40,600 nt of DNA, from NCBI GenBank assembly GCA_001787035.1, contig MFUY01000002.1, forward strand, positions 7,355 through 47,954, given 5' to 3'. The notes under the pieces were generated by a model. The model was given only the letters and a program-made list of their open reading frames with translations, was not told the origin of the DNA and made no database searches. The first letter of the stretch is position 1. Each line of letters starts with the position of its first letter. Positions 208 through 37,052 of this stretch are shown in pieces. This DNA comes from Candidatus Nomurabacteria bacterium RIFCSPLOWO2_01_FULL_41_12 (GTDB taxonomy: Bacteria > Patescibacteriota > Minisyncoccia > Phycocordibacterales > UBA9973). A program made the position numbers and the translations under genes.

Positions 208-279
208 GGTGCCTGTAGTTTAGTGGTAAAACTTCGGCTTGTGGAGCCGATATCGAGAGTTCAATTCTCTCCAGGCACC
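208..279 (+). tRNA. tRNA-His (anticodon GTG) with genome-encoded G-1
   Basis: Hand-folded cloverleaf. Acceptor GTGCCTG 209-215 pairs with CAGGCAC 272-278. D stem GTTT/AAAC. Anticodon stem TCGGC/GCCGA with loop TTGTGGA (GTG at 241-243). T arm GAGAG-TTCAATT-CTCTC. The extra G208 opposite C279 is the His identity element. CCA is not fully encoded. Confidence 0.85.
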
Positions 280-281
280 CA

Positions 282-674
282 TTAATTTTTGTGAATATCT
301 TCTTCTAAATGGGCTAGTTGCTTTTCCACTCTATTCAAAGTATCTTGGAGGTTTTTAATTTGAGTTTCTTCTGTTGCAACTTCTTCTTCCACTTTTTCAG
401 CCATTTTTTCTTCGCCAATCAAGCCGGAAATAATAAGCCGGCTCCCAATAAAAGCGGAGACAAATACTCCCGTGATAAGAAGTATTATGGTTCCTATAAT
501 TATTGAGGCCACAGAACTGACATTAATATCATCGGCCAAATGCCATATTCCGCGCCAAAATAATATTATTCCAATGCCCCCTATGAGCGCGTAAAGAATA
601 GGGTAGTGGCTTAGTTTACTCCTTACTCTGTCTTCCAACTTATCAAAAAATCGCTTTATCTTTTTCAACTTCAT
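282..674 (-). CDS. hypothetical small membrane protein with acidic coiled-coil-like C-terminus
   Basis: 130-aa ORF with two hydrophobic segments (PILYALIGGIGIILFW, IIIGTIILLITGVFVSAFIG) and an EEKMAEKVEEEV tail. TAA stop. No family recognised. Confidence 0.55.
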   Translation of the reverse strand: MKLKKIKRFFDKLEDRVRSKLSHYPILYALIGGIGIILFWRGIWHLADDINVSSVASIIIGTIILLITGVFVSAFIGSRLIISGLIGEEKMAEKVEEEVATEETQIKNLQDTLNRVEKQLAHLEEDIHKN

Positions 675-753
675 CCCAGTACTAAAATTTTAAATAATAA
701 TGTTTATCCTTATTTCCCGTAATCAAAATTAGGTGAAACCGTTACGGGACAAG
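675..753 (-). repeat. Family A leader element, copy A1 (abuts the ATG of the 282..674 gene)
   Basis: The reverse complement reads ACTTGTCCCGTAACGG...AAAATTTTAGTACTGGG followed by ATG. It shares the 5' box ACTTGTCCCGT and the 3' box AAAATTTTAGTACTGGGATG with copies at 4630, 27776 and 36197. Confidence 0.7.
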
Positions 754-790
754 TATTGCTTTATCATACACTAAGAGTAGAATTGTTTCC

Positions 791-4629: not shown

Positions 4630-4702
4630 ACTTGTCCCGTACTAAATTTTTGATTACGAGGCATAACGATAAACATTAATAATTAAAATTTTAGTACTGG
4701 GA
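4630..4702 (+). repeat. Family A leader element, copy A2 (ends in the nusG ATG)
   Basis: ACTTGTCCCGTACTAAATTTTTGATTACG...AAAATTTTAGTACTGGGA. TCCC 4635-4638 pairs with GGGA 4699-4702, which includes the A of the ATG. Confidence 0.7.
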
Positions 4703-5244
4703 TGAAACAAGAAACAGAGGGGGCAAGAAATTGGTACGCAATACACACTTATGCCGGATATGAAAATGTCGTCTTGCGTAATTTGCGCCAGCGCATTGAC
4801 TCCCTAGGTATGAACGATAAAATTTTCAACGTTATTGTTCCGATTGAAAAAAAGATAAAAATAAAAGGAGGCAAGAGAGTGGAGGTGGAAGAAAAAATTT
4901 ATCCGGGTTATGTTTTGGTTGATATGATTGTGACGGATGATTCTTGGTATGTGGTGAGGAATACTCCGCGGGTCACCGGTTTCGTCGGCGCGGGAGTAAA
5001 CCCGGTGCCTCTTAAAAAAGAAGAAGTGGAGTATCTTTTCAAGAAGATGGATGCCGGCACAACTAAGCACAATATTGACATGGTTATCGGCGAGAGCATT
5101 CTGATTACCGATGGTCCGTTTAAAGAACTGGAAGGGAAAATTAATTCCATTGACCAAGAGCGTGGCAAAGTTAAAGTGCTTGTTTCAATGTTCGGTCGCG
5201 AGACCCCGGTCGAACTAGATTTCTTGCAAGTCAAGAAAATTTAA
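4702..5244 (+). CDS. nusG: transcription termination/antitermination factor NusG
   Basis: 180 aa. WYAIHTYAGYENVV, YPGYVLVDM and a KOW-type C-terminus ITDGPFKELEGKI. Confidence 0.9.
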   Translation: MKQETEGARNWYAIHTYAGYENVVLRNLRQRIDSLGMNDKIFNVIVPIEKKIKIKGGKRVEVEEKIYPGYVLVDMIVTDDSWYVVRNTPRVTGFVGAGVNPVPLKKEEVEYLFKKMDAGTTKHNIDMVIGESILITDGPFKELEGKINSIDQERGKVKVLVSMFGRETPVELDFLQVKKI

Positions 5245-13470: not shown

Positions 13471-13504
13471 CCTGTCCCGTATCAAGCTTACTTTGGTTCG
13501 GGGT

Positions 13505-27775: not shown

Positions 27776-27847
27776 ACTTGTCCCGTTGCAAATTCAACGA
27801 ATGGGACATAAAGGATAAAAATTATTAATTAAAATTTGCAACTGGGA
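27776..27847 (+). repeat. Family A leader element, copy A3 (ends in the rplN ATG; classical S10|spc boundary)
   Basis: ACTTGTCCCGTTGCAAATT...AATTTGCAACTGGGA. GTTGCAAATT 27785-27794 pairs perfectly with AATTTGCAAC 27833-27842, and TCCC pairs with GGGA 27844-27847. It carries three compensatory pair changes relative to A2 and A4. Confidence 0.75.
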
Positions 27848-28218
27848 TGATACAAAACGAAAGTTTAGTTAAAATAACAGATAACGCTGGAGGCACCGTG
27901 GGTAAAGTGTTCAAGATTTTAGGCTCTTCAAAAAAAAGATACGCGACTTTGGGCGAATTGGTTATTATTTCTGTGAAAGTAGCTTCTCCACGAAAAGGGG
28001 TAAAGAAGAAAGACGTGCATCAGGCAGTCGTCGTACGCACCAGAAGCGCCTACAGAAGGAAGGATGGATCTTATATTCGTTTTGACGATAATGCTGTAGT
28101 GCTCTTGGAAAAAGGCAAGCTTGACCCGAAAGCCGGGCGCGTCTTCGGTCCGATACCGAGAGAGCTTGCTGAAAAGGGATTTCAAAAAATAATTTCGCTG
28201 GCGCAGGAAGTAATTTAA
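27847..28218 (+). CDS. rplN: 50S ribosomal protein L14
   Basis: 123 aa. MIQNESLVKITDNAGG. Confidence 0.95.
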   Translation: MIQNESLVKITDNAGGTVGKVFKILGSSKKRYATLGELVIISVKVASPRKGVKKKDVHQAVVVRTRSAYRRKDGSYIRFDDNAVVLLEKGKLDPKAGRVFGPIPRELAEKGFQKIISLAQEVI

Positions 28219-35597: not shown

Positions 35598-36194
35598 ATG
35601 CCAAATGAAAATAGTCAGACTTTCGTATTTTTTGGAATAGTGGGCTCCGGCAAAGGGACACAGGTGAAATTGCTGATGGATTTTTTAAAGACTCGTGACG
35701 GACGGGAGATAGTTTATGCTTACCCAGGTAATGAGTACAGGAAACTTATAGAGTCCGGTAGCTATACTGGTTCTTTGGTAAAAGGTCCTGTTTCTCGTGG
35801 TGAACTTCTTCCCGGTTTTTTAACTGACGCTATTGTTACAAATATTCTCATTTTATCTTTGACTCCAGAGAAACATTTGATTGCCGATGGATACCCTCGC
35901 GCAGTAGCCCAATCTATGAGCTTTGAAAAAATGATGGAGTTTTATAAACGGAAAGACATAAAGATTATTTATATTGAAGTAAAAAAAGAGGAAGGAATAA
36001 AGAGAAATCTTTTACGTGGTCGGCATGATGATACAGGAGAAGGTCTTGCCAAAAGATTTGATGAATATGTAAACAATGTAGTGCCAGCGATGAATTATTT
36101 TAAAGATAAAGAAAATTATAAGATTTATCCTATCAATGGCGAGCAATCAGTAGAAAATGTGCATAAAGATATTATCGAAGCTCTGGGGTTTTAG
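35598..36194 (+). CDS. adk: adenylate kinase
   Basis: 198 aa from the ATG at 35598. FFGIVGSGKGTQ, DGYPRAVAQ, RGRHDD. Canonical position before map. Confidence 0.8.
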   Translation: MPNENSQTFVFFGIVGSGKGTQVKLLMDFLKTRDGREIVYAYPGNEYRKLIESGSYTGSLVKGPVSRGELLPGFLTDAIVTNILILSLTPEKHLIADGYPRAVAQSMSFEKMMEFYKRKDIKIIYIEVKKEEGIKRNLLRGRHDDTGEGLAKRFDEYVNNVVPAMNYFKDKENYKIYPINGEQSVENVHKDIIEALGF

Positions 36195-36196
36195 CC

Positions 36197-36270
36197 ACTT
36201 GTCCCGTACTAAATTTTTGATTAAGATAAATGACCACTCTTAGTAACAATTTAAAATTTTAGTACTGGGA
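36197..36270 (+). repeat. Family A leader element, copy A4 (ends in the map ATG)
   Basis: ACTTGTCCCGTACTAAATTTTTGATTAAG...AAAATTTTAGTACTGGGA. Both boxes are identical to copy A2. Confidence 0.7.
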
Positions 36271-37052
36271 TGATAATTATTAAAACACCAGAAGAAATAG
36301 AAATACTGCGAAAAGGGGGCAGGCATCTGGCGGCTGTGCTTCATAAAGTAAAAGAGAAAATAAAACCAGGAATTTCCACGAAAGATTTGGATGATTATGC
36401 ATTTAAGTTAATTAATGAAATGGGCGACTCTCCCGCATTTTTGAATTATCGTCCAGCCGGCGCGAAAGTTCCTTTTCCTGCAAGTCTTTGTGTGTCTGTC
36501 AATGATGAAGTAGTGCACGGCATTCCAAACAAGGAAAGAATATTAAAAGAGGGTGACATTGTCGCGCTTGATTTAGGACTTAAGCATAAAGGGCTTTTTA
36601 CCGACATGGCATTTACGGTACCAGTAGGGAAAGTGAGTTCTAGCGCTCTTAAATTAATGGAGGTGACAGAGAAGGCACTGCAAGTGGGCATCAATGCGGC
36701 GCAAGCCGGCAATACGGTAGGGGACATCGGCCATGCCGTTGAGAGTTTTGTGCGTGCCCAAAAAAACAGCCAGCAGTACGGTATTGTAGAAGTTCTCTCG
36801 GGGCACGGAGTCGGACGCGCAATACATGAAGACCCCTATATACCCAACTTTGGGAAAAAAGGGAAAGGAGAAAAGTTAGTTCCGGGCATGGTCATTGCGC
36901 TCGAGCCGATGATAAATAACGGCACAAAAAATGTGACTTTGGACGATGACGGCTACACTTTCCGCACAGCTGACAGCAAAAACAGCGCGCATTTTGAGCA
37001 TACAATTTTGATTACCGAAAATGGGCCGGAAATTTTGACCAAAACTTTTTAA
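36270..37052 (+). CDS. map: type I methionine aminopeptidase
   Basis: 260 aa. VVHGIP, DIVALDLG, FTDMAFT, GHGVGRAIHE, ALEPM, FEHTILIT. Confidence 0.95.
   Translation: MIIIKTPEEIEILRKGGRHLAAVLHKVKEKIKPGISTKDLDDYAFKLINEMGDSPAFLNYRPAGAKVPFPASLCVSVNDEVVHGIPNKERILKEGDIVALDLGLKHKGLFTDMAFTVPVGKVSSSALKLMEVTEKALQVGINAAQAGNTVGDIGHAVESFVRAQKNSQQYGIVEVLSGHGVGRAIHEDPYIPNFGKKGKGEKLVPGMVIALEPMINNGTKNVTLDDDGYTFRTADSKNSAHFEHTILITENGPEILTKTF

What the first reader, a model, noticed from the sequence alone, without database searches (positions are those of the whole stretch)
27776..27847. Family A: conserved ~72-79-nt leader whose 5' box base-pairs with the start-codon region, with three compensatory pair changes between copies
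Four copies end exactly at the ATG of a gene:
- 675-753, minus strand (membrane ORF).
- 4630-4702 (nusG).
- 27776-27847 (rplN, the classical S10|spc boundary).
- 36197-36270 (map).
A partial 5' box CTGTCCCGTA lies at 13472, upstream of rpsL.

All copies share ACTTGTCCCGT at the 5' end and ...ACTGGGATG at the 3' end. The 5' arm TCCC-GTACTAAATTTT pairs with AAAATTTTAGTAC-T-GGGA, so the helix includes the A of the AUG and the place where an SD would sit.

In the rplN copy the 5' arm is GTTGCAAA instead of GTACTAAA, and the 3' arm is TTTGCAAC instead of TTTAGTAC. The three pairs change A-T to T-A, C-G to G-C and T-A to C-G. These are fully compensatory changes, which is the classical evidence for a selected secondary structure.

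Copies A1 and A3 and the rpsL site also offer a competing proximal partner for the 5' box: TCCCGTAA...TTACGGGA in A1, GTCCC...GGGAC in A3. This suggests alternative folds.

Possible roles are a translational operator, an RNase III-type processing site defining sub-operons, or a mobile promoter-leader cassette.
Basis: partly seen in the sequence, partly recalled or inferred. Interest (0 to 1): 0.7.

Follow-up and report, generated by a model that had tools for sequence, protein, structure and literature searches.

The report
Mobile hairpin element at gene start codons
In a reduced-genome bacterium of the candidate phyla radiation (Patescibacteria), a short repeated DNA element sits directly in front of the start codons of at least 22 unrelated genes, folds into a hairpin that pairs with the start codon, and moves between sites in related genomes, so it looks like a mobile element that targets start codons and may dampen or re-wire translation of the genes it lands in front of.

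Summary
The genome (666 kb, GC 40%, Patescibacteria/Paceibacteria) carries 22 full copies of a 70–110-nt element. In 20 of them the element ends exactly at the ATG of a full-length ORF, and two degenerate copies also end at starts. The ORFs include nusG, rplN, map, rpsI, pheT, purA, mreB, ftsA, atpI and others. Each copy is one long hairpin: 16–17-bp imperfect terminal inverted repeats (TIRs), whose 3' arm pairs up to and including the A of the AUG. Pairing holds across 42 copies (22 here plus 20 in relatives), with compensatory changes: 95.9% of cells paired vs 33–55% when partners are slid. The element is mobile, not an ancestral leader. It occurs only in one genus (0 of 148 other genomes in the class). 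Copy number among congeners runs from 0 to 22. Sister genomes have 'empty sites' where the flank joins the ATG directly, at rplN and nusG. Close strains in metagenomes differ in occupancy at an orthologous start codon. Copies at non-orthologous sites in different species are up to 95% identical, although flanking orthologues are only 70–80% identical. The best reading is a MITE-like element that inserts immediately 5' of start codons, in one orientation and without target-site duplication. It probably dampens translation of read-through transcripts or couples it to the upstream gene; this effect is inferred, not shown.

The parts
672..754 (-). element copy (memb130 variant, 8-nt insertion near 5' arm) ending at ATG of membrane ORF 282-674(-)
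4630..4704 (+). element copy ending at ATG of nusG (ORF 4702-5244); about 15 nt after the end of the secE-like upstream ORF
4635..4650 (+). 5' arm (TIR) of the nusG-upstream copy, TCCCGTACTAAATTTT
4685..4702 (+). 3' arm (TIR) of the nusG-upstream copy, AAAATTTTAGTACTGGGA, ending on the A of ATG
27776..27849 (+). element copy ending at ATG of rplN (ORF 27847-28218), between rpsQ and rplN; absent at this site in sister genomes
27781..27794 (+). 5' arm of the rplN copy with compensatory variant GTTGCAAA
27831..27847 (+). 3' arm of the rplN copy (AAAATTTGCAACTGGGA), pairs through the A of the rplN AUG
36197..36272 (+). element copy ending at ATG of map (ORF 36270-37052), 2 nt after the adk stop codon (within operon)
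36230..36257 (+). candidate sigma70-like promoter inside the map copy (ATGACC-16-TAAAAT); would start transcription about 5 nt before the ATG; recurs only in the TGACC-loop subfamily

Best explanation
The element is a genus-restricted family of miniature inverted-repeat mobile elements in a Paceibacteria (CPR) genus, about 70-110 nt long, with no coding capacity. Each consists of 16-18-bp imperfect terminal inverted repeats around a variable 30-70-nt loop. Copies sit in one orientation, with the 3' end abutting the ATG of a protein-coding gene and, in 20 of 22, no target-site duplication. The element has spread between start-codon sites recently. Its placement is specific to real start codons, not to any ATG. 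That specificity may be built into its insertion mechanism (a trans-acting transposase that inserts next to a short target, as IS200/IS605-family TnpA proteins do without duplication), or it may reflect selection after insertion; which one is not shown. Folding as RNA (and as single-stranded DNA), each copy forms a stable long hairpin whose base includes the A of the AUG and the preceding about 16 nt. This genome lacks Shine–Dalgarno motifs and initiates on unstructured A/U-rich starts. Transcripts that read into the element from upstream should therefore have their start codon sequestered, and translation of the downstream gene damped (inferred). About 13 copies sit 0-15 nt after the stop codon of a co-directional upstream gene, inside operons (adk–map, secE–nusG, rpsQ–rplN). 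There, the ribosome terminating on the upstream gene could melt the 5' arm, making downstream translation depend on upstream translation (translational coupling; inferred). Some copies (the TGACC-loop subfamily) may carry an outward promoter giving near-leaderless transcripts that lack the 5' arm (weak, inferred). The conserved pairing is best explained by the inverted-repeat symmetry the element needs in order to move, possibly reinforced by its RNA effect.
For: There are 22 full copies in the genome plus two degenerate ones. In 20 of 22 the copy ends at the ATG of a full-length ORF. Placement is far beyond chance: only 14% of the 2221 ATGs that have intergenic upstream sequence are gene starts. 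All copies share one orientation relative to their gene. The hairpin is stable as RNA and as DNA, and its pairing covaries. Distribution across 41 congeners is patchy, with copy numbers from 0 to 22; none was found in 148 genomes of other genera in the class. At rplN and nusG, sister genomes have empty sites where the flank joins the ATG precisely. In two congeners, different, longer element copies sit at the nusG start. Metagenome contigs of close strains carry a copy at the start of an orthologue of window ORF 32248, where this genome has none. Copies at non-orthologous sites in different species are up to 94.7% identical, although flanking orthologues are about 70-80% identical. There are no target-site duplications. 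Start-region accessibility drops with the element present: mean unpaired probability from 0.44-0.59 to 0.19-0.38, and the A of AUG is about fully paired. No Shine–Dalgarno enrichment was found. Many copies abut the upstream stop codon.
Against: No transposase or autonomous element with matching ends was found: the four Y1 transposase genes are not near copies, no TnpB is present, and no long element bounded by these inverted repeats exists in this genome. Without a mobilizer or a conspecific empty site with identical flanks, the exact insertion junction and target cannot be pinned down. One copy shows a 6-bp ATGGAT flank repeat (possible target-site duplication) while the rest show none. There are no RNA data, so the translational effect, coupling and promoter are all inferred. 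Several hosts are essential, highly expressed genes (rplN, rpsI, nusG, map), for which strong repression would be costly. That implies the hairpin is tolerated or bypassed, which fits coupling or an internal promoter but is not shown.
Confidence: 0.7

Rival explanations
1. A host cis-regulatory RNA (translational operator or thermosensor-like leader) kept by selection on the RNA structure and spread among 5' UTRs by gene conversion, with the hairpin regulating a coherent regulon.
For: Compensatory pair changes and conserved pairing through the AUG. Fixed position at start codons. The element is present identically in contigs of four metagenome samples at rplN and map.
Against: Downstream genes form no coherent regulon: ribosomal, cell-division, transport, nucleotide-synthesis and membrane genes. 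Many congeners lack the element, even at orthologous rplN and nusG starts. Near-identical copies sit at different genes in different species. The element is confined to one genus.
Confidence: 0.1
2. A portable promoter–leader cassette, like the Neisseria REP2 repeats (which carry promoter, RBS and ATG immediately upstream of genes): each insertion gives the downstream gene its own promoter, whose transcription start sits inside the element, so the mRNA lacks the 5' arm and is near-leaderless.
For: A sigma70-like -35/-10 pair (ATGACC-16-TAAAAT) sits at fixed positions in the TGACC-loop subfamily, predicting a transcription start about 5 nt before the ATG. Six copies face a divergent neighbour with little other room for a promoter (e.g. 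memb130: 36 nt between element and the divergent start). Closest known analogues are Neisseria REP2 and Borrelia 180-bp IR repeats (PMC3184786).
Against: The promoter motif is missing from other subfamilies. Promoter-like hexamer pairs are common in this AT-rich DNA (50 found vs 28.6 expected). No Shine–Dalgarno/RBS is present. No transcript data exist.
Confidence: 0.15
3. An RNase III processing signal: the double-stranded stem is cleaved so the downstream mRNA begins at or near the AUG (leaderless), separating sub-operons.
For: RNase III is encoded in the genome. The element forms a 16-17-bp stem with bulges whose base is the AUG. Many copies lie inside operons.
Against: The stems are short for RNase III, which usually needs about two helical turns, and contain bulges. 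No processing data exist.
Confidence: 0.08
4. Chance resemblance or assembly artefact.
For: None.
Against: 22 copies with covariance-model E-values down to 1e-15. Each copy sits on its own contig context with normal flanks. Copies are present in contigs of several independent metagenomes.
Confidence: 0.01

Closest known systems
Neisseria REP2 repeats / Borrelia 180-bp IR sequences (start-proximal intergenic repeats)
   Same: Multi-copy repeats found immediately upstream of ORFs that include the start codon and form internal stem-loops; thought to act as 5' UTR and promoter cassettes (PMC3184786, sections 11-12).
   Different: Here there is no Shine–Dalgarno/RBS. The structure is one long hairpin whose base pairs the AUG, not stem-loops near the 5' end. 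The element is in Patescibacteria and has no detectable sequence relation (no Rfam hit). A promoter is only a candidate in one subfamily.
Bacterial MITEs (e.g. Neisseria Correia elements/NEMIS, IS200/IS605-derived MITEs)
   Same: Short non-coding element with terminal inverted repeats folding into a hairpin. Multi-copy, with copy-number and site-occupancy variation among relatives. Correia elements are transcribed into UTRs and processed by RNase III (recalled from literature, not tested here).
   Different: Strict placement immediately 5' of ATG start codons in one orientation, and no target-site duplication in 20 of 22 copies. No autonomous partner found.
REPIN / RAYT system
   Same: A mobile, hairpin-forming, non-coding repeat family in bacterial genomes, spread by a trans-acting Y1 transposase. 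A REP-like GC-rich double-hairpin family and a Y1 gene are also present in this genome.
   Different: The AT-rich element's arms are not self-complementary REPs; it is one long hairpin. No Y1 gene lies near any copy. Start-codon placement is not a REPIN trait.
Start-codon-sequestering hairpins in translational control (e.g. RNA thermometers, coupling hairpins in polycistronic mRNAs)
   Same: A hairpin that pairs with the translation start region, expected to block initiation unless melted (by temperature, an upstream ribosome, or processing).
   Different: Here the hairpin is carried by a mobile repeat in front of about 22 unrelated genes, not a gene-specific evolved leader. Its regulatory effect is inferred, not shown.

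Membership tests
Bacterial MITE | Short non-coding element (< ~500 bp) with no ORF | tested here: met
   70-110 nt, no coding capacity
Bacterial MITE | Terminal inverted repeats | tested here: met
   16-18-bp imperfect TIRs, pairing maintained by covariation
Bacterial MITE | Multi-copy, with presence/absence polymorphism at orthologous sites among relatives | tested here: met
   0-22 copies per congener; empty sites at rplN/nusG; strain-level difference at a start site
Bacterial MITE | Flanking target-site duplication | tested here: not met
   No TSD at 20 of 22 copies; one possible 6-bp ATGGAT repeat. Some families (IS200/IS605) insert without TSD, so this does not exclude mobility.
Bacterial MITE | Related autonomous transposon with matching ends | tested here: not met
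   None found in this genome. Relatives not scanned for long elements.
Neisseria REP2-like start-proximal repeat | Located immediately upstream of ORFs, ending with the ATG start codon | tested here: met
   20 of 22 copies end GGG|ATG of full ORFs; placement far beyond chance
Neisseria REP2-like start-proximal repeat | Carries a promoter | tested here: inconclusive
   Candidate -35/-10 in one subfamily only; no RNA data
Neisseria REP2-like start-proximal repeat | Carries a ribosome-binding (Shine–Dalgarno) site | tested here: not met
   No GGAG/AGGA enrichment upstream of starts genome-wide, and none in the element
Neisseria REP2-like start-proximal repeat | Sequence homology to REP2 | not testable with these tools
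   No REP2 reference sequence on hand; no Rfam family matched
REPIN/RAYT | REP doublets of GC-rich self-palindromic REPs, with a RAYT gene nearby | tested here: not met
   Arms are not self-complementary; no Y1 gene within 3 kb of copies. A separate REP-like family exists.
IS200/IS605-derived element | Insertion next to a short specific target without duplication; single-stranded DNA hairpins recognised by TnpA | tested here: inconclusive
   No TSD, and one end always abuts ATG. The hairpin is stable as single-stranded DNA. No TnpA near copies and no TnpB.
Rfam-curated RNA families | Match at gathering threshold | tested here: not met
   No Rfam match over element copies

The most novel reading that the evidence does not exclude
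The element is a transposable element whose insertion machinery targets translation start codons themselves: it inserts exactly 5' of ATG start codons, in one orientation, with no duplication. Each insertion becomes a hairpin that sequesters the new host gene's start codon and makes its translation depend on translation of the upstream gene. This would be a mobile element that samples expressed-gene starts. That is possible only if the target is recognised co-transcriptionally or co-translationally, or if the element is mobilised through an RNA step.
Probability: 0.35. Interest if true: 0.85.

Novelty: new variant of a known kind. Interest (0 to 1): 0.6.

Why it matters
If it holds up, this is a mobile element that lands precisely on translation starts and wraps each start codon in a hairpin. 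In a Shine–Dalgarno-less CPR genome, each insertion would be a one-step switch that rewires translation of essential genes (rplN, rpsI, nusG, map, mreB, ftsA, atpI), possibly making them translationally coupled to upstream genes. It would show how such small genomes can gain regulatory variation. It would also make two open questions directly testable with comparative metagenomics and transcript mapping: how a mobile element could recognise start codons, and how SD-less bacteria initiate translation when the start is sequestered.

Tried and rejected
- The rpsL 'partial box' at window 13471 is a chance 10-mer with no 3' arm and no model hit.
- The 'competing proximal folds' are copy-specific. 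The memb130 insertion makes its alternative fold the minimum-energy one; the rplN copy keeps the main stem.
- Rfam search found no known family.
- RNA evidence: no RNA holder was listed, so expression, transcription start sites and processing could not be examined.
- Search for a mobilizer:
  - The four Y1 (IS200-like/RAYT) genes are unrelated to each other and have no element copies nearby.
  - No TnpB is present.
  - No long element bounded by these inverted repeats exists in this genome.
- No gene caller was available, so neighbour-gene distances and the random-ATG test rest on crude longest-ORF calls.
- Literature searches for start-codon-targeting MITEs in CPR found nothing specific; the closest analogues come from one review (PMC3184786).
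- I considered but did not run phylogenetic profiling to find a transposase whose presence tracks the element, because of budget.

Full report
What was checked and found. The window lies on contig C2 of a 665,914-bp, 31-contig, 40%-GC genome that is 91% complete. NusG relatives are named Patescibacteria, Candidatus Paceibacterota, Pacebacteria and Nomurabacteria, so this is a CPR bacterium.

Each ends 'GGG|ATG' at the start codon of its ORF: window 672-754 (-), memb130; 4630-4704, nusG; 27776-27849, rplN; 36197-36272, map. The 11-nt 5' box occurs 11 times exactly in the genome, far above chance. An HMM built from those copies, and then a covariance model (R1), find 22 full copies. Degenerate or symmetric relatives add at least two more start-codon copies.

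Genes that start at the element's ATG include:
- trpR-like, NUDIX, FtsA, YraN/UPF0102, HtpX (M48), a DnaQ-like exonuclease
- two membrane proteins, LivH-type permease, PheT, PurA, MreB, a beta-CASP RNase J-like protein
- PilC, PilM, AtpI, class II FBA
- ribosomal protein S9 (rpsI; the element ends GGGA|TT and the start ATG lies 9 nt downstream)
- plus nusG, rplN and map.

Structure. Each copy folds into one long hairpin: the 5' arm TCCC-GTACTAAA-TTTT pairs with AAAATTTTAGTACTGGGA, with single-nucleotide bulges, and the terminal pair is U–A(AUG). This is the minimum-free-energy structure in 20 of 21 copies, with z-scores of -2.2 to -5.8; as single-stranded DNA it is also stable, z -2.6 to -4.

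- mreB: C-G to G-C
- pilC: C-G to U-A
- atpI: U-A to G-C
- type-II copies: G·U wobbles

On a structure-aware alignment of 42 copies (22 here, 20 in relatives; alignment A2), 95.9% of cells pair, against 33-55% when partners are slid by 1-3 columns. Five pairs and 25 cells show changes on both sides. Because many changes are shared within subfamilies, there are fewer independent events than cells. Two parts of the finding fail. The rpsL 'partial box' is chance. The alternative folds are copy-specific.

The element is mobile, not an ancestral leader. Seven lines of evidence:
- Distribution. Among 41 congeners, 13 of 24 sampled genus members carry copies, from 0 to 17 apart from this genome's 22. 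None was found in 148 genomes of other genera in the class.
- rplN site. Sister genomes G042, G022, G019 and G024 have only about 10 nt between the rpsQ stop and the rplN ATG; the upstream flank joins the ATG exactly where this genome carries its 72-nt element (alignment A3). G049, G050 and G007 instead carry an unrelated 14-nt GC-rich hairpin at the same place.
- nusG site. Most congeners lack the element, and the secE-region flank joins the ATG directly. Two congeners, G054 and G010, carry different, longer element copies at this start.
- Strain level. Metagenome contigs of strains at 90-95% identity carry an element right before the ATG of the orthologue of window ORF 32248, where this genome has none. 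The rplN and map copies, by contrast, are present identically in four samples.
- Copy similarity. Copies at non-orthologous genes in different species are up to 94.7% identical, whereas flanking orthologous DNA is about 70-80% identical.
- Orientation. Every copy faces the same way relative to its gene.
- Junctions. Twenty of 22 copies have no target-site duplication.

Placement is specific to real start codons. Of 2221 ATG trinucleotides with at least 20 nt of intergenic sequence upstream, 14% are gene starts. At least 21 of 24 element copies are at starts, a binomial tail of roughly 1e-15. Crude gene calls make the exact figure approximate.

No mobilizer was found. The four Y1 transposase genes are not copies of one IS element and have no element copies within 3 kb. 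No TnpB is present. No long element bounded by these inverted repeats exists. A separate GC-rich REP-like double-hairpin family sits beside one Y1 gene, which looks like a RAYT/REP system; it is unrelated to this element.

Likely consequences, all inferred. The genome shows no Shine–Dalgarno enrichment before starts (GGAG 4.3% vs 4.8% background), and starts are A/U-rich, so initiation is SD-independent. A hairpin that pairs through the AUG lowers start-region accessibility: predicted mean unpaired probability over -12..+6 falls from 0.44-0.59 without the element to 0.19-0.38 with it, and the A of the AUG is about fully paired.

About 13 copies sit 0-15 nt after the stop codon of a co-directional upstream gene, so they lie inside operons (adk–map gap 2 nt, secE–nusG, rpsQ–rplN). 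Read-through mRNAs will therefore fold the hairpin. Two ways out are plausible. A ribosome terminating on the upstream gene could melt the 5' arm, coupling downstream translation to upstream translation. Alternatively, some copies may carry an outward promoter: a sigma70-like ATGACC-16-TAAAAT pair recurs at fixed positions in the TGACC-loop subfamily (map, NUDIX, YraN, LivH, PheT, PurA, rpsI), predicting near-leaderless transcripts that lack the 5' arm. Promoter-like hits are common in this DNA, however (50 found vs 28.6 expected), so this is weak. RNase III is present, but the stem is short for it.

There are no RNA data. The host-level effect is therefore unshown.

Assessment. Best reading, about 0.7: a MITE-like element restricted to one Paceibacteria genus. 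It inserts in one orientation immediately 5' of start codons without target duplication. Its conserved inverted-repeat pairing makes a start-codon-sequestering hairpin in mRNA, which probably damps or couples translation of the host gene. Whether pairing is selected for mobility or for the RNA effect is not resolved.

Rivals:
- a REP2-like promoter cassette (0.15)
- a host-selected regulatory leader spread by gene conversion (0.1; largely excluded by the site-occupancy data)
- an RNase III processing signal (0.08)

Closest known kinds are Neisseria REP2 and Borrelia 180-bp IR repeats, which sit immediately upstream of genes and carry promoter, RBS and ATG (PMC3184786, sections 11-12), and bacterial MITEs. 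This element differs in three respects: it has no RBS, its single long hairpin sequesters the start codon, and it is placed exactly at the start codon.

Novelty: a new variant of a known kind. The most novel reading not excluded is a transposon that targets start codons mechanistically (probability about 0.35).

Noticed in passing
G000 C1:13307, C1:7790, C3:1527, C9:4852, C30:29490, C30:43904 and more (genome coordinates): A separate GC-rich REP-like double-hairpin repeat family (core CCGCCAAAGGCGGATCCGCCTCGGGCGG) in this AT-rich genome. One copy sits about 850 bp from a Y1 transposase gene at C9:5698, which looks like a RAYT/REP system. In congeners G049, G050 and G007 such hairpins occupy the rplN start site instead of the AT-rich element.
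   Followed up: partly
G000 C9:5698, C10:1051, C20:10123, C25:1790 (loci L065-L068): Four Y1 (IS200-like/RAYT) transposase genes of about 220-247 aa that are not copies of one IS element. The L066 protein has the HuH and Y motifs.
   Followed up: partly
L027:2500-2609 (G000 C28:3437-3546): A longer element copy lies over the 5' end of a 715-aa ORF whose ATG is inside the element loop. The element's 3' arm is translated as part of a signal peptide (KILVLGLIL).
   Followed up: yes
G000 C20:35329-35397 (genome coordinates): A fully symmetric element variant (CCCGTACGAAATT...AATTTCGTACGGG) ending at the ATG of a 568-aa ORF and flanked on both sides by ATGGAT. This is the only copy with a possible target-site duplication, one that includes the start codon.
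   Followed up: partly
G000 C9:8440-8530 (genome coordinates): A 38-nt perfect hairpin made only of the two inverted repeats (CCGGTACTAAATTTT-GCTAA-AAAATTTTAGTACGGGG): a possible deletion derivative or 'solo' element.
   Followed up: no
window 209-279 (+); L014 several: tRNA genes detected by Rfam.
   Followed up: no
genome-wide: No Shine–Dalgarno motif enrichment upstream of gene starts; A-rich -11..-3 region. No 16S 3' end was found with a universal motif search, so the 16S may be missing from this assembly.
   Followed up: partly
window 36092-36405 and other element bins: Metagenome contig depth spikes over element copies, because contigs of all copies and of related strains pile up there. 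Depth over these elements is no measure of copy number or expression.
   Followed up: yes
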